64,000 nt of DNA, from the NCBI RefSeq assembly GCF_006345805.1, contig NC_042997.1:176700001-176764000 (forward strand), written 5' to 3'. This document shows, piece after piece, positions 4,501 to 48,490 of this stretch. The position numbers were made by a program, and so were the translations under genes. Positions within the stretch are counted from its first letter, which is position 1. The number at the start of each line of letters is the position of its first letter. The DNA is from Octopus sinensis (taxonomy: Eukaryota). The notes below the pieces were generated by a model that made no database searches, had not been told where the DNA came from, and saw only the letters and a list, made by a program, of their open reading frames with translations.

Positions 4501-5544
4501 AGCAGCATGGGGGAAAATGGACATAAAAAGCTAAAGTAAAATAAAGTAAAAATGATAATAATAGACAACAACAACAACAACAACAACAATAACAAGCAGC
4601 ATCATTGACACTGCCACCACAACCACAGATAATTAACTTAGCTATGATTGGTGGTGGGGGGGATGCGCAGTGTTTTGTGGTGTGTAGTAATTTCTTTACA
4701 TCGAATTTTCAGTGTGACAAAATCAGAAGGGAATCAGATTCTGACTTAATCTGTAAAGGGTTGTTTGGGTATATACTCTCTTTACTCTTTTACTTGTTTC
4801 AGTCATTTGACTGCGGCCATGCTGGAGCACCGCCTTTTAGTCTAGCAAATCGACCCCAGAACTTATTCTTTGTAAGCCTAGTACTTATTCTATCGGTCCC
4901 TTTTTGCTGAACCGCTAAGTTGCGGGGACGTAAACACACCAGCATCGGTTGTCAAGCGATGTTGGGGGGGGGGGACAAACACAGACACACAAACATACAC
5001 ACACATAAACATATATATATATATATATATACATATATGTTTATTGAAATGGATAAATGAATTATCTTGTTACGGATTATTCAAATTATAACCGATACCT
5101 GGGTAGCAAAAATCACAACAGAAAAATCACGGTTGAGGTTACGACCTCCATTTCTTCCCTCACTAAATATATATACATATATATATATGATGGGTTTCTT
5201 TCAGTTTCTGTCTACCAAATCCACTCACAAGGATTTGGTTGGCCCGAGGCTATAGTAGAAGTGCCATGCAGTGGGACTGAACCCAGAACCATGTGGTTCA
5301 TAAGCAAGCTACTTATCACACATCCACTCCTACGCCTAGTAGTATAAATATACCCAAGAGTTTATATATGTATATATAAATCCAAAAATCAGAATAAGAA
5401 CATAACGGATGACAATAAAAACATACGGAGAAATAGACGATATGAAAACGGACAGGAAAAACCAGGACGGAACATTCATGACAAATCAAATGTTAGTTAC
5501 GATTCTGAACTCATAAAAATATATACAATAATGAAGTTACTTAC

Positions 5545-7067: not shown

Positions 7068-7894
7068 AATAATGGCATTACTCTTTTACTTGTTTCAGTC
7101 ATTTGACTGTGGCCATGCTGGAGCACTGCCTTTAGTCAAGCAAATCAACCTCAGGACTTATTCTTTGGAAGCCTAGTATTTATTCTATCGGTCTCTTTTG
7201 CCGAACTGTGAAGTTACGGGGATGTAAACACACCACCATCGGTTGTCAAGCGAGGTTGGGGGGGGGGGGACAAACACAGACACACAAACATATACACACA
7301 CACATACATACATATATATACATATATACAACAGGCTTCTTTCAGTTTCCGTCTACCAAATCCACTCACAAGGCTTTGATCAGCAGCGAGGCTATAGTAG
7401 AAGACACTTGCCCCTGGTGCCATGTAGTGGGAATGAACGCGGAACCATGTGGTTGGTAAGCAAGCTACTTACCACACAGCCACTCCTGTGCCATTGGTAA
7501 GCAAGCTACTTACCAACCACATGGTTCCGGGTTCATTCCCACTACATGGCACCAGGGGCAAGTGTCTTCTACTATAGCCTCGCTGCTGATCAAAGCCTTG
7601 TGAGTGGATTTGGTAGACGGAAACTGAAAGAAGCCTGTTGTATATATGTATATATATGTATGTGTGTGTGTATATGTTTGTGTGTCTGTGTTTGTCGCCC
7701 CCCCAACCTCGCTTGACAACCGATGGTGGTGTGTTTACATCCCCGTAACTTCACAGTTCGGCAAAAGAGACCGATAGAATAAATACTAGGCTTCCAAAGA
7801 ATAAGTCCTGGGGTCGATTTGCTCGACTAAAGGCAGTGCTCCAGCATGGCCACAGTCAAATGACTGAAACAAGTAAAAGAGTAATGCCATTATT
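7068..7894. repeat. ~390-bp-arm inverted duplication (fold-back) of a SINE A copy plus 10-bp flank
   Basis: Arms 7068-7460 / 7509-7894 share private variants (TGATCAGCAGCGAGG, CCCTGGTGCCATGTAGTGGGAATG). Confidence 0.9.
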
Positions 7895-10490: not shown

Positions 10491-11844
10491 AAGTACCATT
10501 TGTACATCTAGGAAATGTCTGTATGCACAGAGCCATGAGTTTTTGACAACTACACTCCCTAATTAATCTTTTGCTTGTTTCAGTCATTGGAGAGTGGCCA
10601 AGTTGGGGTACCACCTGGAAATGTTTAGCCAAACAAATCAATACTAGCGTTTATCTTTTTTAAAATTTTTATCTCTTTTGCTGAACTGCTAAGTTATGGG
10701 AACAGAAACAAACCAACACTGGTTCTCTAGTGAAGGTCATGGTGGGGGACAAACACACAATCACACACACACACACACAGAGTAAGAAATCACTTAGTAT
10801 AAATGACTATGAAGAAGGAGAAATTAAGATGAAAGGAATGAATTTATTTTGAACTTGAAAGAGCTCAGGTCATAAGAAGGAGGAAAACAATGAGATGGAA
10901 GAGAATTTCAAAGATATGGTCAGTTTAAATGCTAAAGGGTAAAATTATGCAAATCGCTTAGACCATAAATGTGTTCTATTATTATGTATAAGTTTAAGTT
11001 TCTTGGCTGATGGAGATAAGGTTGGACAAGTGTTGTGCTGATGATGTCTGTTGGGGCAGAAACACATGTCTACAACTGTCCCCTTATTTCAAATTCCTTA
11101 GTGATATAGCAACTTTGGAAAATTCTAGATTCTTGAGATTATCTCTCTTTCTCATATGAAACAAGTCTTAACTGCAATTTGGTAATTATGACACATCTTC
11201 TAGAAGCAGAGATAATTTTAATAAATCAAGAATTTATGTTGTATGGCATTTGATATATCTGGACTTGACTCTGTTGTTTATATCCATGCCACTGGCCATT
11301 CTGAGCTATTTCTCTTGGTGCATTTTGTTTAAGACACATAACTCTGCTTGCTTTATTTAACTAACAACAGTTTGTTCCTTCTTGAGCCATGCCTGGCCCA
11401 TAAGGGCCGGTTTCCTTGGTGTATATGTTCCCCACTTGGATGGGACGCCGGTCCGTCGCAGGTGAGCTGCAAGGTGCAGGAGGAAAGAGTGAGAGAAAGT
11501 TGTGGCGAAAGAGTCAGCAGAAGTTCACCATTACCTTCTGCCAGAGCTGCATGGAGCTTAGGTGTTTCGCTCATAAACACACACATCGCCCGGTCTGAGA
11601 TTCGAACCCGTGATCCCTCGACCGCGAGTCCACTGCTCTAACCACTAGGCCATGTGCCTCCACAACTAACAGCAGGATCTTGTCTCATTAAGTATTTAAT
11701 TAGTTAGCAGTAGTAAAGAGTAGTTAGCTGTTGGAACAACTGCGAGAAAAATATCATTATTATCCACCTTAGCCAGATTAAAAATGAATTTTAAACAGTT
11801 GCTAAAAGAAGTAATTGTGAAGGAAATGAAGGAAATTCACTTAC

Positions 11845-25784: not shown

Positions 25785-26582
25785 CTAAAAATAATCATAA
25801 AAAGATTACATCAACATCATTGTCCCTACCACCACCACCACCACCTCCTCTCCACCACCATCATCACCATTATCATCATCAATTTTACATCAACTATTCA
25901 TGCTGGCATGTGTTAACCAGGTTGTTACAATCTGAGTCAGTTCTTATTTGGAGTTATTGCTCTCTTTGATGGGTAAAAATATTCCACTTTTTGGCATGGT
26001 TTCTTTGGCAGGATGCTCTTCCTATTAGCAATTTTGTTATAATGTGTACTAAGCAGATTTTAAGATGGTATCAACATTAGAGTGGCTGACATGCTTACTC
26101 TTTCACTCTTTTACTTGTTTCAGTCATTTGACTGTGGCCATGCTGGAACACCGCCTTTAGTTGAGCGAATCGCCCCCAGAAGTTATTCTTTGTAAGCCTA
26201 GTACTTATTCTATCGGTCTCTTTTGTCGAACTGCTAAGTTACGGGGGACGTAAACACACCAACATTAGTTGTCAAGCGGTGCTGGGGGGACAAGCACAGT
26301 CACACAAACACACACACACGCACACACATATATATAAATTTATATAAATAAGGATAAGATCGTTAATTTAAAATAAAATAACGAACCTATCAAGTGGTCA
26401 GCATGGAAAAATAACCTTCAAAGGTAATAATTATTAAAATCATAAATTAGGGTATCTACGAGATACCACCATGCTGAAAATAGCAGCCATGAACTGACTC
26501 TAAAACCACCTTAAGTTTTCATATAGCAACATGGAGAAAAGACAAAGAGACAAGATGAAACTAGTAAAAAATTTACTGGATA

Positions 26583-26624
26583 ATTCTAGATCCCGGATTT
26601 CTGACTTTGCCTTGTCAGTAGAAT
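26583..26624 (-). ncRNA. Hammerhead motif with G8A core mutation
   Basis: AUUCUA CUGACAA GGCAAAGUCA GAAAU CCGGG AUC UAGAAU. Confidence 0.6.
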
Positions 26625-26644
26625 ACACTCAGAAAGAAACATAA

Positions 26645-26689
<45 letters not shown>

Positions 26690-26857
26690 ACATACGAATA
26701 CTTACATATACGAATGTATACATACATATATATGCATGTACACATCAAGGCTAGTTCAAAATGCCTGTTAATTCCATGTGCTATATGGTAAAATATTACC
26801 GCAGTAAATACAGTGACGAAATAATATATATATGTATTTATGTTTCTTTCTGAGTGT

Positions 26858-26916
26858 ATTCTACTAACGAGGCAAAGCATTTCTAAATGCAAATCCAGAA
26901 ATCCGGGATCTAGAAT
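26858..26916 (+). ncRNA. Hammerhead motif with G5A core mutation
   Basis: AUUCUA CUAACGA GG..GCAUUU CU AAAUGC..CCA GAAAU CCGGG AUC UAGAAU; perfect stem I. Confidence 0.65.
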
Positions 26917-28623
26917 TATCCAGTAATTCTTTACTAGTTTCATTTTGTCTCTCTGTCTTTTCTCCATGTTGCTATATGAAAACTTAAGGTGGTTTTAGAG
27001 TTGGTTCATGGCTGCTATTTTCAGCATGGTGGTATCTCGTAGATACCCTAATTTATAATTTTAATAATTATTACCTTTGAAGGTTATTTTTCCATGCTGA
27101 TCACTTGATAGGTTCGTAATTTTATTTTAAATTAACGATCTCATCCTTATTTATATAAATATAAATTTATTTCATCACTGTATTTACTGCGGTGATGTTT
27201 TACCATATAGCACATGGAATTAGCGGGCATTTTGAACTAGCCTTGATGCATACGTGCATATATATGTATGTATACGTTCGTATATGTAAGTATTCGTATG
27301 TTGTATTTATATACATATATATATGTATTTATGTTTCTTTCTGAGTGTATTCTACTGATGAGCCACTCCTACACCTATACTTACCACACAGCCACACCTA
27401 TGCCTATTATATTTTATTTACAGGGTTTACTGGCTACAATATGTCATGGCGACAGTATTATTGAATTTGTCTTGCAAGATGAAAGAGTCATTACTACTCT
27501 TTGACATGATTAAGAGGGATGAATGGAAGGGAGAGGGGACTGAGAGTATGATGGGAAGGAGGGGGACAGTGGCGTGAGAGAGTATTACAGGAATCAGAAG
27601 TGGAAGAAGTACAATGTTGCAATCGGAGTGTGATGTGAACAACAGTGATAGTACAATGGATAGAAAGAGTCGAGTGGGGCAGTTATTAAAAAGAATAAAA
27701 TATTCATTTATAAGGTATGATAAATACAGTGACTTGCTCTCAGTCTATTATTTCTTCTGCAGTCGTCTCATTAGGAAGAGGGCATTAGTATTGTCTCTCC
27801 TTGGTTCACTAACAGACAGACAGACTGAAATTTTTTTTAACTGGAAAGCTATTTTTTACTTAAATTTTCTTTTTTCTGGTTAAAATTAAACCATCACCAT
27901 CTGATGTGATATTATGTTAATTAACCTTGTTATTAATGGATACATACTTTTCTTCTATCAAAATAGCTGAATAATATTCAGTACATGTACTGATATTTTT
28001 GTCCTCTTAGTTCCTGTTTATTGGGAACAAAAAAGCATCAACAATCAACATTATGCCCTTAATTAATGCCCCAATTCATATACAGACTTCATCATCATCA
28101 TCATCGTTTAACATCTGCTTTCCATGATTGCATGGGTTGGACGATTTGACTGAGGACTGGCGAACCAGATGGCTGCACCAGGCTCCAATCTTGATCTGAC
28201 AGAGTTTCTACAGCGATGCCCTTCCTAACGTCAACCACTCCAAGAGTGTAGTGGGTGCTTTTACGTGCCACCGGCATGAGGGCCAGTCAGGTGGTATTGG
28301 CAACGACCACGAAAAAATCGTTTTTTTTTTTTACGTGTCACCTGCACACCGGCACAAGTGCAAGTAAGGCGACGCTGGTAACGATCACACTCGAATGGTG
28401 CTGTTTACGTGCCACTGGCACGAACGCCAGTTAGCCGCTCTGGCAACGATTACACTCGGATGGTGCTCTTAGTGCTCCACTAACATGGATGCTAGTCATC
28501 GAATTTGATTTCGATTTCACTTGCCTCAACAGGTCTTCGCAAGCAATGTCCAATTAACTTGTGTCTATAAAACCCCAGAAATATACAAAACATAATAACC
28601 AACAATAGCAACAATATATTTAC

Positions 28624-34786: not shown

Positions 34787-35739
34787 ACACGTGAAGATAC
34801 TTGGCTTTTCCAACGCCTTAGCCCCACCGTCGCCCGTGGTAATATTGTGAACGTGCTGGTTTGGTTCAGTAGGTTCTGCTGAACCTTGTGGTGCGCGACC
34901 AGTTGAAGCACTTAGTGCTGCATTGTTTTCTTCTCTTTCTTCCCCACAAATGGTTTCAATACAGTTTTAGCGGAGAGATCTAGAAGAATTTGAAGAAAGT
35001 TCTCCGGTTATTTTCTTTCATGTAAATAAATGTCAATTAACAAAAACAAAACAAAACAAAACAAACAAACAAGCAAACAAAAAACATTAGTAAATCAAAG
35101 AAAAATTTATATTTACAGAGGGAAAATCGTTGAGGGTCGCCGGAAGGCTACTTGAGGACCGCATGCAACCCTGGGAACTGCTGATTTAGATAGTAAAACG
35201 TTGAACTAGTTTTGTCATTGTAACCTCTTCAATGTTGACTTAGTCGATATTCATCATAAAAGTAGCAAGTTGGCAGGATTGTTTGAGCGTTGGTTAGAGT
35301 GTTTTGCGGTATTTGTTCCGGCTCTCTGCACTCTGAGTTCCAATCTCGCTGAGGTCAATTTTGCCTTTTATCTTTTCGGGGGTCGATAAATAAAGAATCA
35401 TTCCAGTACTTGTGTCAGTAGTATCTTAAAACATGGACGCACTTTTGGAACTAACTTACTTTATTATATGAAATATTATCTAATTCTCTGACTATGGTTA
35501 TGTAGTGGATCTTGCAGGCATAATGTAGATTCGATCCTAGATAGCCAAATTTAAATTAACACTTTAACTGCACATTTCTCATGGTAAAACAATAGTTTTT
35601 CTGTGATAGCAGTTTATATTTGCCCAGCGCCTTAGTTTAGCAAAATAATGTCTTCGCCACTTGACCCTTCTAACCTCTTCTATTTCACCAAAAGCTAGAA
35701 TTATGATAACAAGTACCACCAACGAAATCCATTGGTCTC

Positions 35740-38088: not shown

Positions 38089-38150
38089 TGGGGTTACCCG
38101 GGTTTCCCGTCCATAAAGGGTTTAACTTTATGGCGTATCGTCAGACCCCA
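38089..38150 (-). ncRNA. Type I hammerhead ribozyme with extra nucleotide after A9
   Basis: UGGGGU CUGACGA U ACG CCAUAAAG..CUUUAUGG A CGG GAA ACCCGGGU A ACCCCA; perfect 6-bp stem I; palindromic stem III; GUA site. Confidence 0.8.
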
Positions 38151-38235
38151 AGACCTGTTGGCCTATGACCTCTTTAAAAGTATTTTAAAGAGGTCATAGG
38201 CCAGAGTAACCCCATAAATTAGCTTTCACCAGGAA

Positions 38236-38282
<47 letters not shown>

Positions 38283-38480
38283 CAGTGAGACGGATGACCA
38301 CTATGTGGACAACCCTTATGCTAGAAGTAGATCCGCTATGGTCTTACCACTAAGAAATGTTCTCAAGAAAAATCTAGCAAAAATTTTTTTTCTTGAGAAC
38401 ATTTCTTAGTGGTAAGACCATAGCGGATCTACTTCTAGCATAAGGGTTGTCCACATAGTTGTCAAACCGCTCATTTGTAT
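38283..38480. repeat. Near-perfect ~90-bp-arm inverted repeat next to (TA)n
   Basis: ACTATGTGGACAACCC...TCTCAAGAAAA / TTTTCTTGAGA...GGGTTGTCCACATAGT. Confidence 0.9.
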
Positions 38481-38911
38481 ATAATACAGTTTACTGAACC
38501 TTCAGATTTTGTATGCTAGACCACTGGTGTTAAATTGATGTTAATTTAATTAAATTAATATCCAATTTCTCCCCTCATTATATATATGTACAGGTTAAAT
38601 AAAGTGAGACAATAAAGCTAAGGCAGTGTGAATTTTTTAGGACATTTTATAAAGAGAAGGGTAGTCTTACACCTGTTCAAGATATAAAATATATTCCCTC
38701 ACCAGAGACGATATGAGAGAGTTAAATAGAAGGAAATAGTAGAATTCAAAATAAGAAGTTATTTTGGAAAGCGAGGGATATAGGAAGTATAAAGGGAAAT
38801 ATAAGAATAATATATAGACATATATAGTCAGTAAATCATAAATCCGAAATAGACGCACACTCTTTTATAGAGCAGTAGAGTAATTAGATAAGGATAATTA
38901 TGGCCGGTCTA

Positions 38912-38973
38912 TGGAGTTACCCAGGGTTTCACGTCTATATAGCGCTTAGTTTTACAGCGTTTCTTCAGATCCT
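38912..38973 (-). ncRNA. Type I hammerhead ribozyme, diverged paralogue of 38089-38150
   Basis: GGAU CUGAAGA A ACG CUGUA..UAUAG A CGU GAAAC CCUGG GUA ACUCC. Confidence 0.7.
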
Positions 38974-39050
38974 AATATTGTATATATATATCTCTCTACA
39001 TACATACATACATACATACATACATACATACATACATACATACATACACA

Positions 39051-41753: not shown

Positions 41754-42391
41754 TCTTTAACTTGTTTCAGTCATCAGACTGCGGCATGCTGGGGCACTAT
41801 CTTGAAGAATCCTAGTCGAATGAATTGACTCCAGTTCTTATAAAAAAAAATTTAAAGCTTGGTACTTATTCTATCGGTTACTTTTTACCGAACTGCTAAG
41901 TTATGGGGACGTAAACACACCAACAGCGGTTGTCAAGTGGTGGAGTACACACACACACATGCACACGCACAGACATACGGAGGGCTTCTATTAGTTTGCG
42001 TCAAGCAAATCCTCTGACAAGGCTTTGGTCGGGTCGAAGCTATAGTTGAAGACACTTGTCCAAGGTGCCACGCAGTGAGACTGAACCCGGAACCATGTGG
42101 TCGGGAAGCAAACTTTTTACCACATAGCCACTTCTAATATATTTATATATACATACATAAATTTATTTATATATACATATATACATATACAGTGCGTGTC
42201 CGAGTTTGGGCATTCGGAGTTACAAACGATAAGAAAAACATAAAATAAAATTTCTGCATGTTTTAAAGTTTGTTCGTTATGAGGATAACTCAGAATTGTG
42301 AAGATTCAGCTTAAAATGAATGAATATATATATATATATATATATATGAATAAATGAAAGAATTGAGTCGAACGAAGATGTTAACAAAATT

Positions 42392-42485
42392 CCTTTACTC
42401 TCGACACATGTTTCGAAGACGGCATACTTTTATTCCGAAGGAATAAAGGGTGCATTATGCAATCTTCTCATCAGGAAAGATAAGG
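42392..42485 (-). ncRNA. Type I hammerhead ribozyme (inverted copy of 42857-42950)
   Basis: Reverse complement of the 42857-42950 motif within the fold-back arm. Confidence 0.85.
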
Positions 42486-42856
42486 AGCCTCACTCAGCCA
42501 CAAGACGAACAAAAAATTTTGATGATTGCCTACATGGTGACCACAGTGATAATGAGTGTTTTTTAAAAAAAATCCATTATAAAATCCGTTATACACACAC
42601 AGACACAAATGCAGTTATATACACACATTCATACACACACATAAACACTTGCACTCATTAACACAAGCACACACCTGCACATCCCCATACGTACGGCATA
42701 CATATTGTCCCCTACCTATTTTTACTACTTCCTCCTTCTACCCAATTTTGACGTCAATGATTATAACGGATTTTAAAAAAAAACACTCATTATCACTGTG
42801 GTCACCATGTAGGCAATCATCAAAATTTTTTGTTCGTCTTGTGGCTGAGTGAGGCT

Positions 42857-42950
42857 CCTTATCTTTCCTGATGAGAAGATTGCATAATGCACCCTTTATT
42901 CCTTCGGAATAAAAGTATGCCGTCTTCGAAACATGTGTCGAGAGTAAAGG
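42857..42950 (+). ncRNA. Type I hammerhead ribozyme, long stem II
   Basis: CCUUAUCUUUC CUGAUGA GAAGA..UCUUC GAAAC AUGU GUC GAGAGUAAAGG; palindromic ACAUGU in stem III; GUC site at 42937-42939. Confidence 0.85.
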
Positions 42951-43630
42951 AATTTTGTTAACATCTTCGTTCGACTCAATTCTTTCATTTATTCATATAT
43001 ATAAAAAACACACAAATTTCCACACAAGAACCCGGAGTTTCTACCCTTGACAGGTCGCTTCAACCGTGTTTTCTGACGTGAATTTGCTACCCAGGTATCG
43101 GTTAAACGAATTTCCCATGCTAGGATAATTCATTCACCTACTTATATATATATATGATTGTGTATAGAGGGATATATATTATTCAAAGAAATTCCAAGTC
43201 TGTTTTGTATGTTTTATTTATATTCTTTATAATATTAATGTAGAATATAGAATATATAGTATAAATAATATATATATATATATATATATGAATAAATGAA
43301 AGAATGGAGTTGAACGAAGATGTTAACAAAATTCCTTTACTCTCGACATATGTCTCGAATGAAAACATGCTGTCTTCGTTTTCCAAAGGAATGAAAACAT
43401 GCTTTTCTTCGAAACATATGTCGAGAGTAAAGGAATTTTGTTAACATCTTCGTTCGACTCCATTCTTTCATTTATTCATATACAATATACAAATTTCTGT
43501 ACATGAACCCGGATTTTCTACCCTTGACAGGTCGCTTCAACCGTGTTTCTGACGTGAATTTGCTACCCAGGTTTCGATTAAACGAATTTTCCATGCTGAC
43601 GATAAACATAGGATAATTCATTCACCTACT

Positions 43631-43672
<42 letters not shown>

Positions 43673-44009: not shown

Positions 44010-44128
44010 TGCTTACAGCACCTAGGTTTCCCAAGCGGTCACCCATCTAAGTACTAACTAGGCTCGATGTTGCTTAACTTCGGTGATCGGACGAGAACCG
44101 GTGCTTTCAACGTGATATGGCCGTAAGC
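44010..44128 (-). rRNA. 5S rRNA: 5S rRNA gene (solitary, full-length 119 nt)
   Basis: GCTTACGGCCATATCACGTTGAAAGCACCGGTTCTCGTCCGATCACCGAAGTTAAGC...GGGAAACCTAGGTGCTGTAAGCA; terminal helix GCTTACGGC/GCTGTAAGC intact. Confidence 0.95.
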
Positions 44129-44686: not shown

Positions 44687-44791
44687 GTACATGCGAGCAG
44701 ATAGGCGCAAAATAAACTGGAGAAAATAGCACTCGAATACCAATTGTAGAGTACAATATTAGGTTTTATGGAAGCTGAAAAACTTCACCAA

Positions 44792-44829
44792 CTGTTACTC
44801 AGAGTTTCACGAAAACGATCATCAGACAG
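44792..44829 (-). ncRNA. Minimal type I hammerhead ribozyme in inverted Penelope pseudo-LTR
   Basis: CUGU CUGAUGA UCG UUUU CGU GAAAC UCUGA GUA ACAG; same stem III as the 47181 copy; first stem II pair mismatched. Confidence 0.7.
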
Positions 44830-45382
44830 AAATAAACTATTGGAAGAACGTGGTGCTTTATAAATATTTATAAATAAAACAGCGATAATTATTTAAATAA
44901 CTTATCAAATAAGCATTTAAAGCTGATTGGAGAGGGATTATTCACTTTGAAAATGTTTGGAATTTGTTGGATAAAACGATTTAGCGGTAAAAATAACTCC
45001 AGATCTCGCAAGGGTAGCCTTAGAAAGGTATTGTGGTTCAACATTAATTTAGTATGCATGTCAAGACTAATGTAGATAAACATTTTAAAGTTTAGTACCG
45101 GGATATTTTCCCAGAAGGCATAATATATTACTCTTTTACTCTTTTACTTGTTTCAGTCATTTGACTCTGGCCATGCTGGAGCACCGCCTTTAGTCGAGCA
45201 AATCGACCCCAGGACTTATTCTTTGTAAGCCTAGTATTTATTCTATCAGTCACTTTTGCCGAACCGCTAAGTTACGGGAGACGTAAACACGCCAGCATTG
45301 GTTGTCAAGCGATGTTGGGGGGACAAACACAGACAAACAATCATATGCACACGCACATACATACATACACACACACACACAC

Positions 45383-45415
<33 letters not shown>

Positions 45416-47180
45416 GACAGGCTTCTTTCAGTTTCCGTCTGCCAAATCCACTCACAAGGCTTTGGTCGGCCCGAGGCTATAGTAGAAGACACTTGTCCAA
45501 GGTGCCACGCAGTGGGGCTGAACCCAGAACCATGTGGTTGGTAAGCAAGCTACTTACCACACAGCCACTCCTACGCCTATATTATAGATTATTTAATAGA
45601 AGAACCCTGAAAATCAGCTTCGCTTCGCTTGTTAACCAGCATTATATGAGTAAACATGATACTTGAAATGAAAATGATGACAACTCTAAGGGCAACTGTA
45701 AAGACTCTAGTAACTGTCCGCTTAATAGCAATTGTCCAATAAAAGGAGTTGTATACCGGAGTTGTATAAGTCCATGCCGATAATAGTCCTACATGTAAAA
45801 TTTACACCGGTGTCACGGAAAACAGTTTCAATATGAGGTTTTACCTATATAAAATTCCTTTCAATATCCAGACAACAGGCCCTCAACGTGTTTATCCAAA
45901 CATGTATGGTAATTAAAGGAAACTGGTTTTCCCCCTTGCAAAACACACTGGTAAATCTTGGAAAGAACAAGCCCACACATGTATGGATGGATCCTGCAGC
46001 CATCCTATGAAATGTTTGTTATACTTAAACGAGGAATATTTTATTGTTTCAGGACAATTCGATCTTGAATCGAAAATCTGAACTATGGAACAAGTCGTTG
46101 ACATTCTTCGAAGTTTTTGATTTCGAAGCCTTCACCACAGATCGATTAATGTATATACATCCATTACGCACTATCGCATGTGTTTTACAGCTTTTTGTTA
46201 TAATTTCGAATTTGTTGGATGTATTTTTTTATGTTTTTGAACTGACATTGTTGCATCCAATTTTTATACGATTCTTTTTTCAGTTTTAACATTTACCTTT
46301 AGCTTTTTATATAACCTTTCATTGACAAGGTTATAGTTTATAAATATGTTTATTACATTTTATTTTAATTTATTACTTTGTTACTCTTTTTTAAAACTAT
46401 CACTCCAGCTTTGAATTAATTTGACTGATTTTATCAACATATCCCCAAACGCTATTTCTATATCCTTATATATTTCGAAGTTGGATTTTGTTCGATATAT
46501 TTTCAATGTCTCTTTTTTTTCTAACCCAGAGCTTGCTTTTTGTTTCTGTCACATCCTACAAATAGAGTGCAAAGGAAACCTACCATCAAGTCTATCTAAT
46601 TTCCCTGTCAAATGTGTCCTTTCTAATCGCTGCTACCACACACACACACACACACACACACACTCGTGTATTTCTCTTTTATCCATAGTTTATACATGCC
46701 TTCAGTTTTAACTGATAGTATTTTTAAAACTTAGCTATCATCTTTTCTCTCTCGCTTTTCTCCCTCTTTTTCACTTTTTCTCTTTCTTCCCTGCATGCTC
46801 TAACCCACCACTCCTCATTTGATTATTCATTTATAATTTACTTGTATTTCGTGACACTCATTCATCTTTGTCTGAATTTATATATTTTTTACAACATATT
46901 TTCCATAAACTCTTGATTTCTATCGACATTTTTTTCACCCTCACTGCAATTATTATGACTAATATCATGTATATATATGCGAATTATTTCTTCGAGTTTA
47001 AATTCGACTTTGACTAGTTTTCAATGTTTATTTATTTTTTTTGATTACAAATTCCTGAAACTTTGAAAAGTCATGATCCCTATCCAATCAGCTTTAAATG
47101 GTTATTTGATGAATTAATAAATAATTGCCACTATTACATCTATATAAATTTATAAGCCATCGTATTGTTCCAAAAGCTCA

Positions 47181-47226
47181 ACCTTGTCTGATGATTGTTT
47201 ACAAGAAACTCTGAGTAATAGTCGGT
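47181..47226 (+). ncRNA. Minimal type I hammerhead ribozyme in Penelope 3' pseudo-LTR
   Basis: ACCUUGU CUGAUGA UUG UUUA CAA GAAAC UCUGA GUA AUAG UCGGU. Confidence 0.75.
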
Positions 47227-47286
47227 GCAGATTTTCAGTGTCAATAAAACACCACACACACACACACACACACACACACAATTTAT

Positions 47287-48028
47287 TGTCACTAAAAGTG
47301 ACCAAGGGTGCAGCGAGCACCCTTGGTTTGCTAGAAATAAGAGTCATAGATACTTTAGCCACATAAAGCATATGTTCTATTTGAACTGACAAGGCGAGAC
47401 AACCTCTCCACCGGAAGCAAGTTGCATTAGATTAGCATGCTAATTTCGTATGTAATTTAATACTCATCAGTAATACTTACTCCATTGTGGGTAGTAAAGC
47501 CGAACTTTCATCTCTTAGTATTATAGAAAATACCATAGGAATCAGCGGGTGAGTCTGCAAAAAAGCAATGTGAAAATTATAAAATAATTAAGGTGGTTAG
47601 ACACAATTTAAAGGCTGCTCCCTTCATCACTGGTCCCTTTTAGGGACGGTGAATTATTTCTTCTTTTGGTTTTAAATTGCATCTAGCCACCTTAATTATT
47701 TTATAATTTTCACATTTCCTTTTGGCGGACTCAGCCACTGATTCCTATGGTATTTTCTATAATACTGACAGGCGAAAATTCAATTTCATCTGCAATGGGG
47801 TAAGCATTACCGATGAGTTTTAATTTCTATACGAAATTACCATACCAAACTAATGCACCTCGCTTGCGGTGGGGAAGTTGTCACCTTGTCAATTCAAATA
47901 GAAATGCTTTCTGTGGCTAAAGAGTATGTGACTCTTATTTCTAGCAATGCTGGTACTCGCTGCACCCTTGGTCACTTTTAGTGACTGAATTATTTCCATT
48001 TTTTGATTTTAATTTGTATCTAGCCACC

Positions 48029-48209: not shown

Positions 48210-48490
48210 ACAATCAAGGAACGGCCATAATAGGCCATTCACCCACTAGAAATAACAGCCAAAGCTTCAACCGCAAAATAACATTAATTCCGCAAACCAG
48301 GAGAAAATTAAAAAAAATAAAAAAAAAAATAAAAAAAAAATTTAAAAATTAAAAAACTTAAAAAAATTACAGGGTAATTGTTTTTTTAATTTCTCCTGGT
48401 TTGCGGAATTTATGTTATTTTGCGGTTGAAGCTTTGGCTGTTATTTCTATGGGTTGAATGGCCTATTATGGTTGGCCGTTTGTTGATTTT
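48210..48490. repeat. ~100-bp-arm inverted repeat between (TA)n tracts
   Basis: ACGGCC..TAGAAATAACAGCCAAAGCTTCAACCGC..CCAGGAGAAA versus its reverse complement at 48385-48490. Confidence 0.85.

What the first reader, a model, noticed from the sequence alone, without database searches (positions are those of the whole stretch)
42320..43640. Young fold-back with two identical intact hammerheads on opposite strands
Arms 42345-42590 and 42760-43000 are nearly identical, so the event is recent. Each carries a full HHR with an extended branched stem II (internal UUUAUUCC UUCG GAAUAAA hairpin) and a GUC site. A second partial tandem copy (GAAACAUAUGUC at ~43411-43422) and another inverted fragment follow. 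A transcript through both arms would form ~250 bp of dsRNA that sequesters its own ribozyme, a possible built-in off switch or ADAR/siRNA substrate (inference). A 3' piece of the same family lies inside a SINE at 5050-5150.
Basis: partly seen in the sequence, partly recalled or inferred. Interest (0 to 1): 0.75.

Follow-up and report, generated by a model that had tools for sequence, protein, structure and literature searches.

The report
Ordinary head-to-head Penelope retrotransposon insertion
The fold-back is a truncated copy of an abundant octopus Penelope-type jumping gene laid down as two back-to-back arms, a layout already described for these elements and repeated at many other sites in this genome, so the two opposite-strand hammerhead motifs are likely a by-product of how the element copies itself and not a built-in off switch.

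Summary
The inverted repeat and both hammerhead (HHR) motifs are real: arms 42339-42571/42771-43003, 99% complementary, 222 nt exactly identical. They are the end repeat (pLTR) of a coding Penelope-like element (RT plus C-terminal GIY-YIG), closest to the Hydra clade. The 'spacer' is element body. The layout is the family's rule: 29 of 55 other sites have a head-to-head arm, 27 of the 29 ending at one fixed site; 16 of 55 span the HHR in both arms; ends abut (TA)n. The HHR core pattern has 971 exact matches genome-wide. Inverted pLTRs and opposite-strand HHR pairs are in print (PMC8557442, PMC4209133). The second unit is a separate insertion lacking CUGAUGA, not a tandem copy. Helix III is only 2 bp, so the motif likely needs a same-strand partner. 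Read-through RNA is predicted to block it, but no transcript is shown and the site lies 7 kb upstream of BBS4's start codon. Twists: a 140-nt tail, and (TA)n targeting without the CxCX5C linker. This scan found the same layout on other DNA of this genome.

The parts
42324..42346 (.). (TA)n run at the left end of insertion 1, likely the target
   Evidence: sequence; 27 of 27 short ends at other sites abut (TA)n
42343..42582 (-). inverted, 5'-truncated pLTR arm of insertion 1, ending at the family's fixed 'short end'
42398..42479 (-). type I hammerhead motif in the inverted arm (predicted cut 3' of 42403)
   Evidence: mirror of 42863-42944
42572..42594 (.). junction of the two arms, with a short duplicated 12-mer and TA/CA microhomology
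   Evidence: sequence; mechanism inferred
42593..42770 (+).
   Evidence: shared with other copies; begins about 240 nt after the ORF stop as placed in L038
42771..43003 (+). forward pLTR arm up to the short end
42863..42944 (+). type I hammerhead motif: 5-bp core stem I, long stem II, 2-bp near-palindromic helix III, GUC at 42937-42939
   Evidence: activity untested
43004..43146 (+). 140-nt tail, present on the forward arm only; in longer copies it continues for about 55 nt to the ORF start codon
   Evidence: 10 of 12 ORF starts are directly preceded by it
43143..43155 (.). (TA)n run at the right end of insertion 1
   Evidence: sequence; 51 of 55 long ends at other sites abut (TA)n
43281..43359 (-). 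inverted short-end arm of insertion 2 (3' half of HHR only)
43360..43405 (.). scrambled junction of insertion 2 made of forward and reverse pieces of stem II
   Evidence: sequence compared with subfamily HHR rows; template switching inferred
43393..43634 (+). forward arm plus tail of insertion 2, another subfamily (12-nt insert in the tail), no CUGAUGA; followed by (TA)n to 43669
5036..5150 (-). diverged tail fragment of a related family inside the TA run of a SINE
   Evidence: SINE halves 4782-5033 and 5167-5304 match contiguous parts of another SINE copy

Best explanation
The region holds two 5'-truncated, non-coding copies of the end of an abundant endonuclease-bearing Penelope-like retroelement, each laid down head-to-head between (TA)n runs, likely in one insertion event each. 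Shown: the parent has one ORF (RT, Asn-rich linker, C-terminal GIY-YIG), then a 3' UTR and pLTR with the HHR; copies end at one of two fixed points 140 nt apart; the inverted arm nearly always ends at the short point when the forward arm ends at the long one. Inferred, from the in vitro work on the anole element PAc: the element's endonuclease nicks both strands of AT-rich DNA, reverse transcription starts at two internal sites of a tandem-unit RNA (one from each nicked strand), both cDNAs stop early and are joined at their 5' ends by microhomology or template switching, which gives a palindrome with outward-pointing HHRs. The HHR likely serves to process the parent's tandem RNA, as a dimer or with protein help; in this truncated copy it is likely a passenger. 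Any read-through RNA would form dsRNA that blocks the HHR and could be edited or diced, as a side effect.
For: Upstream body and ORF in longer copies: RT motifs and GIY-YIG domain (Pfam GIY-YIG E 0.005 and 0.013, below its cut-off, 2 of 4 proteins; 33-39% identity to full-length 718-722 aa RT-EN proteins). 971 exact matches to the HHR core pattern, 0 for the reversed control; among the 100 listed, 11 pairs lie within 3 kb and all 11 are minus-then-plus (my count, this locus included). Of 55 other sites: 27 inverted arm at the short end, 1 at the long end, 1 elsewhere, 26 none within the fetched flank; 16 span the HHR in both arms; 51 of 55 long ends and 27 of 27 short ends abut (TA)n. PMC8557442 (passages): inverted 5'-truncated copy and a tail at one end are typical of PLEs. 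PMC4209133 (parts 1-2 of 4): dual HHRs 100-700 bp apart on opposite strands, short palindromic helix III, no cleavage by a single minimal motif. PMC11167929 (parts 1-2 of 4): both strands nicked at AT-rich DNA, two RT start sites bounding the tail, HHR protein-assisted and not needed for insertion in vitro.
Against: The two-strand priming model is taken from another clade; PMC3846280 (Discussion) proposes self-priming on an antisense template instead. The tail here is 140 nt against 30-40 bp in print. 26 of 55 sites show no inverted arm in the fetched flank. The 55 sites are best hits to queries that include the long end, not a random sample. No stop-free full-length ORF of this family among 150 scored of 17,637 candidates (longest frame 787 aa). 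No covariation support for the HHR fold among 20 copies, which are 94% alike.
Confidence: 0.9

Rival explanations
1. The antisense arm is a selected off switch or a host-used dsRNA (ADAR or siRNA substrate), perhaps acting on the nearby BBS4 gene.
For: Folding predicts complete sequestration of the HHR in read-through RNA of either strand. The arms are more alike than at most other sites (0 of 222 in the core, against mostly 1-7% mismatch elsewhere). BBS4 starts 7.2 kb away on the - strand, so an upstream 5' UTR intron is not excluded.
Against: The same layout recurs with random truncation points at 29 of 55 sites, and in 13 of those 29 at least one arm is cut inside the HHR; insertion 2 here has no complete HHR at all. 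No BBS4 coding exon lies beyond 35164. The HHR's helix III hardly forms even without the antisense arm.
Confidence: 0.05
2. The palindrome at this locus is an assembly artefact (fold-back long read or mis-join of repeat copies).
For: No listed contig of four runs spans the junction or the whole stretch; perfect arm identity could come from polishing.
Against: The arms end at two different family-specific points, flanks are not palindromic, 170 nt of body are present once, and the same asymmetry recurs at 27 other sites whose arms mostly differ by 1-7%.
Confidence: 0.03
3. It is a non-autonomous retrozyme (tandem HHR repeat with a circular RNA stage) rather than a truncated coding element.
For: The window copy encodes no protein and carries a type I HHR, as non-LTR retrozymes do (bioRxiv 10.64898/2026.07.22.740005, part 1 of 5).
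Against: No head-to-tail HHR units here; 5' ends vary freely and run into the RT-EN ORF in longer copies; unit 2 is a separate subfamily.
Confidence: 0.02

Closest known systems
Hydra clade of C-terminal EN+ Penelope-like elements (Craig et al. 2021, PMC8557442; includes Hydra-1_Obim of Octopus bimaculoides in File S1)
   Same: [quoted passage not shown]
   Different: CxCX5C linker absent, an Asn-rich stretch in its place; RWL for RWK; ORF about 856 codons against 709 aa; HHR sequence differs from the Hydra-1_oBim row of File S2; both pLTR ends and a 140-nt tail are defined here
PLE-associated type I hammerheads with short palindromic helix III (Cervera and de la Pena 2014, PMC4209133)
   Same: conserved core, long helix II, 5-bp core helix I, 2-bp helix III with near-palindromic loop; pairs on opposite strands 100-700 bp apart
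   Different: stem II is longer (53 nt between CUGAUGA and GAAA); no extra base between A9 and G10.1
Adineta vaga Penelope elements (PMC3846280)
   Same: head-to-head inverted pLTRs, tail on one arm only, Asn-rich inserts in the ORF, one of them between RT and EN
   Different: 31-bp tail and 8-10 bp target duplications there; here 140 nt and microsatellite targets that hide any duplication
PAc, Poseidon element of Anolis carolinensis (PMC11167929)
   Same: two fixed ends bounding a tail, AT-rich targets, HHR in the pLTR
   Different: there the HHR and RT starts overlap the ORF start; here the HHR and both ends lie upstream of the start codon (long end about 55 nt before it)

Membership tests
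EN+ Penelope-like element | single ORF with RT and GIY-YIG endonuclease | tested here: met
   in longer copies L031, L034, L036, L038, all with frameshifts or truncation; the window copy holds none of the ORF
EN+ Penelope-like element | pLTRs from partial tandem arrangement, direct or inverted | tested here: met
   L031: pLTR, ORF, pLTR plus inverted arm; 29 of 55 sites with inverted arm
EN+ Penelope-like element | tail on one end of the insertion | tested here: met
   present, but 140 nt instead of 30-40 bp
EN+ Penelope-like element | type I HHR motif in the pLTR | tested here: met
   core CUGAUGA in 77 of 91 rows (rows include repeated fetches of one locus)
EN+ Penelope-like element | variable 5' truncation | tested here: met
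Hydra clade | DKG motif changed to DKT | tested here: met
   DKTGNIY in L031, one copy seen
Hydra clade | N-terminal RWK motif | tested here: not met
   RW kept in 11 of 12 ORF starts but followed by L (10) or F (1)
Hydra clade | CxCX5C linker before GIY-YIG | tested here: not met
   absent in 3 of 3 aligned copies, present in 4 of 4 outside homologues
Hydra clade | CxxC and CxH flanking the conserved E and N | tested here: met
   invariant C497, C500, E503, N513, C522, H524
Hydra clade | CCHH motif absent | tested here: inconclusive
   only one Cys inside the GIY-YIG core, judged by eye; no canonical PLE was aligned
Hydra clade | (TA)n insertion preference | tested here: met
   51 of 55 long ends, 27 of 27 short ends
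Hydra clade | RT phylogeny groups with Hydra references | not tested
   no labelled reference proteins were available as stored sequences; likeness judged by eye from the supplement
Type I hammerhead ribozyme | conserved core and stems I-III | tested here: met
   active fold costs 2 kcal/mol over the MFE of the 100-nt motif; no covariation signal
Type I hammerhead ribozyme | self-cleavage | not testable with these tools
   needs an in vitro assay; monomer helix III probability 0.01-0.04, helix III duplex of two copies -6.0 kcal/mol
Non-LTR retrozyme | head-to-tail units each with a full HHR, no coding parent | tested here: not met

The most novel reading that the evidence does not exclude
This octopus family is a Hydra-like Penelope lineage that has lost the cysteine linker proposed to recognise (TA)n yet still lands in (TA)n at both ends, and its two reverse-transcription start sites are 140 nt apart and assigned asymmetrically (short end on the inverted arm in 27 of 29 pairs). 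It would be a natural counter-example to the linker-targeting idea and a clean genomic read-out of how Penelope elements build their head-to-head insertions.
Probability: 0.55. Interest if true: 0.45.

Novelty: new member of a known kind. Interest (0 to 1): 0.25.

Why it matters
The fold-back itself is ordinary for Penelope-like elements. Its use is as a record of an unresolved step, how these elements make inverted ends: two fixed ends, a strict asymmetry and many copies give testable predictions for an in vitro system. The missing CxCX5C linker tests the proposed link between that motif and (TA)n targeting. If such palindromes are transcribed, this family supplies many perfect dsRNA hairpins in an animal group known (recalled, not from a call) for heavy A-to-I editing, but nothing singles out this locus.

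Tried and rejected
Rfam scan of the window: no hammerhead family among 55 matches. Sequencing runs: no RNA holder listed. Covariation on 20 HHR copies: not above shuffles (248 to 481 of 500 shuffles reach the observed values); copies too alike. Pfam gave no RT family for the element or for 6 homologues. My first guess of the Neptune clade (recalled motifs) was dropped after reading the Hydra section; notebook entry 2 says 'CCHH kept', which is wrong: the motif is the Hydra-type CxxC/CxH. Search for a sibling carrying the window's rare variants: 23-mer around 42850 only in the two arms (common allele 8 places), 30-mer around 42978 in 3 other places, 22-mer around 42760 in 3 other places, 24-mer around 43114 only here (the laid contigs read the other letter, so it may be an error). 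No source copy found. Dropped before the count: this locus and repeated fetches or segmental duplicates (L001, L011, L031, L032, L041, L051, L068, L069); long fetches replaced short ones for 7 sites. Paper searches found no paper on this family; one search found only PMC8557442 for Hydra, linker and microsatellite; subscription journals and Repbase were not searched, and I saw only search hits in that paper's supplement.

Full report
Observation. The inverted repeat is there: arms 42339-42571 and 42771-43003, 233 nt, 99% complementary. The 222 nt from 42778 are exactly identical, and the few differences lie next to the junction. Each arm carries the same type I hammerhead motif: on the + strand stem I 42863-42867 with 42940-42944, CUGAUGA at 42868, GAAA at 42928, GUC at 42937-42939; on the - strand CUGAUGA at 42474. 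Stem II folds as one long unbranched hairpin with a 3-nt tip, not a branched stem with a UUCG tetraloop, and the tip reads UUU in the second subfamily. Helix III is 2 bp; its pairing probability in monomer folds is 0.01-0.04, while two copies of the near-palindromic helix III stretch pair at -6.0 kcal/mol. Rfam listed no hammerhead among 55 matches, and 20 copies show no covariation above shuffles, so the fold rests on motif match and energy, not on comparative proof.

What it belongs to. A search of the own genome with 42760-43140 gave 50 matches from 40 scored of 2,833 candidates, full-length ones at 89-97% identity. The HHR core pattern has 971 exact matches and the reversed control 0. The 170 nt between the arms is shared by other copies, so it is element body, and some copies run on for more than 1.5 kb upstream. 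[quoted passage not shown] L031 gives the whole plan: inverted arm, pLTR with HHR, tail, about 55 nt, start codon, about 856 codons with frameshifts, 3' UTR, pLTR, short end, (TA)n. Ten of 12 ORF starts are directly preceded by the tail. The window copy is the last 550 nt of such a tandem RNA and holds no coding sequence. The host is an octopus: a window exon is 100% identical to a BBS4 protein that NCBI labels Octopus sinensis.

The fold-back is the family's rule. Of 55 other insertion sites (best hits, duplicates removed, so not a random sample), 29 have a head-to-head arm within the fetched flank; 27 of the 29 end at the same short point (window 43003) while the forward arm ends 140 nt further on; 16 of 55 span the HHR in both arms; 51 of 55 long ends and 27 of 27 short ends abut (TA)n. 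Among the 100 listed pattern matches, 11 pairs lie within 3 kb and all are minus-then-plus (my count). The second unit in the window repeats the layout in miniature: inverted arm 43281-43359, a scrambled junction, forward arm and tail 43393-43634. It is 85% identical to the first, has its own set of 95-97% relatives and lacks CUGAUGA, so it is a separate insertion. The fragment near 5040-5145 is a diverged tail lying between two SINE halves at their TA run, which suggests that the TA runs exist before insertion.

What is in print. PMC8557442 (passages, section 11, supplement search hits) describes inverted 5'-truncated copies and a 30-40 bp tail at one end as typical of PLEs, and defines the Hydra clade, with an Octopus bimaculoides member. 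PMC4209133 (parts 1-2 of 4) reports dual HHRs 100-700 bp apart on opposite strands, short palindromic helix III and no cleavage by a single minimal motif. PMC11167929 (parts 1-2 of 4) shows for the anole element nicking of both strands at AT-rich DNA, two internal RT starts bounding the tail, and a protein-assisted HHR that is not needed for insertion in vitro. PMC3846280 (passages and Discussion) shows head-to-head pLTRs and Asn-rich inserts and proposes self-priming on an antisense template. bioRxiv 10.64898/2026.07.22.740005 (part 1 of 5) defines non-LTR retrozymes as tandem HHR repeats, which this is not.

Mechanism. Shown: two fixed ends, asymmetry, free 5' truncation, (TA)n flanks, coding parent. 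Inferred: the element's enzyme nicks both strands of a (TA)n run, primes one cDNA from each strand at the two internal start sites, both stop early, and their 5' ends are joined by microhomology or template switching. The HHR likely processes the parent's tandem RNA as a dimer or with protein help. Two HHRs on opposite strands never share an RNA in sense orientation, so they cannot help each other. BBS4 coding exons lie at 35164 and below on the - strand, so the site is 7.2 kb upstream of the start codon; an untranslated upstream exon is not excluded, and a coarse ORF screen (110 aa or more) showed no other clear host gene, though small exons would be missed.

Age. Arms at other sites mostly differ by 1-7%, so 0 of 222 is at the young end. 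The forward copy has 6 letters that are rare among 82 other alignments, 4 outside and 2 inside the arm overlap, the latter shared by both arms; one 23-mer occurs only in these two arms. If the 4 outside arose after insertion, about 5.5 arm differences would be expected (P of none 0.004). So either the insertion is young and its source copy was not found (no stop-free full ORF among 150 scored of 17,637 candidates), or the arms were homogenised by conversion or polishing. Contigs could not decide.

Membership and novelty. It meets the tested features of an EN+ Penelope-like element. It works like the Hydra clade (DKT, CxxC/CxH, (TA)n, HHR) but is not filed there: the CxCX5C linker is absent in 3 of 3 aligned copies and present in 4 of 4 outside homologues, RWK reads RWL or RWF, and no tree was built. 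The loss of the linker with (TA)n targeting kept, and the 140-nt tail, are the only features I did not find in print. Earlier notes of this scan report the same two-end, head-to-head layout for other families in this genome; none matched this sequence. Verdict: real, ordinary, new member of a known kind; interest 0.25.

Noticed in passing
window 35164-571, - strand: BBS4 gene: 11 exon matches to P0012, start codon at 35164, continuing beyond the window's left end.
   Followed up: partly
window 44010-44128, - strand: Full-length 5S rRNA match, 113.8 bits, followed by a T run on its own strand.
   Followed up: no
window 44763-44967 and 47047-47250: Another pair of opposite-strand, outward-pointing HHR-like motifs (44825 on -, 47188 on +) in 77% identical inverted arms 2.1 kb apart; likely another Penelope-like family.
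   Followed up: no
window 38100-39000: Inverted repeat 38273-38483 with HHR-like motifs on the - strand at 38144 and 38968.
   Followed up: no
window 11030-11075, 50797, 59729: Further short HHR-like motifs, the one at 11038 with a palindrome-like helix III; chance matches not excluded.
   Followed up: no
window 7068-7894, 26328-27170, 47288-47985, 48212-48488, 1136-1536: Other long palindromes (78-94%), the first at least partly made of inverted SINE copies.
   Followed up: no
G000:C1:120016281, C19:5791202, C7:70356724, C4:144780749, C12623:46336, C10818:21211: Related families (68-71% identical at the N-terminus) with open frames of 899-908 aa, possibly intact elements.
   Followed up: no
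L031:1930-9720: Cluster of a near-complete element, its inverted arm with the long end, and an older subfamily copy with its own inversion directly beside it.
   Followed up: partly
L039:6158-7635: Inversion inside the ORF (403 nt arms, 98.5%) rather than at the pLTR.
   Followed up: no
P0001, P0010: NCBI proteins named GATA zinc finger-like (Argonauta) and myb-like protein I (Octopus) are pieces of related Penelope-like ORFs.
   Followed up: partly
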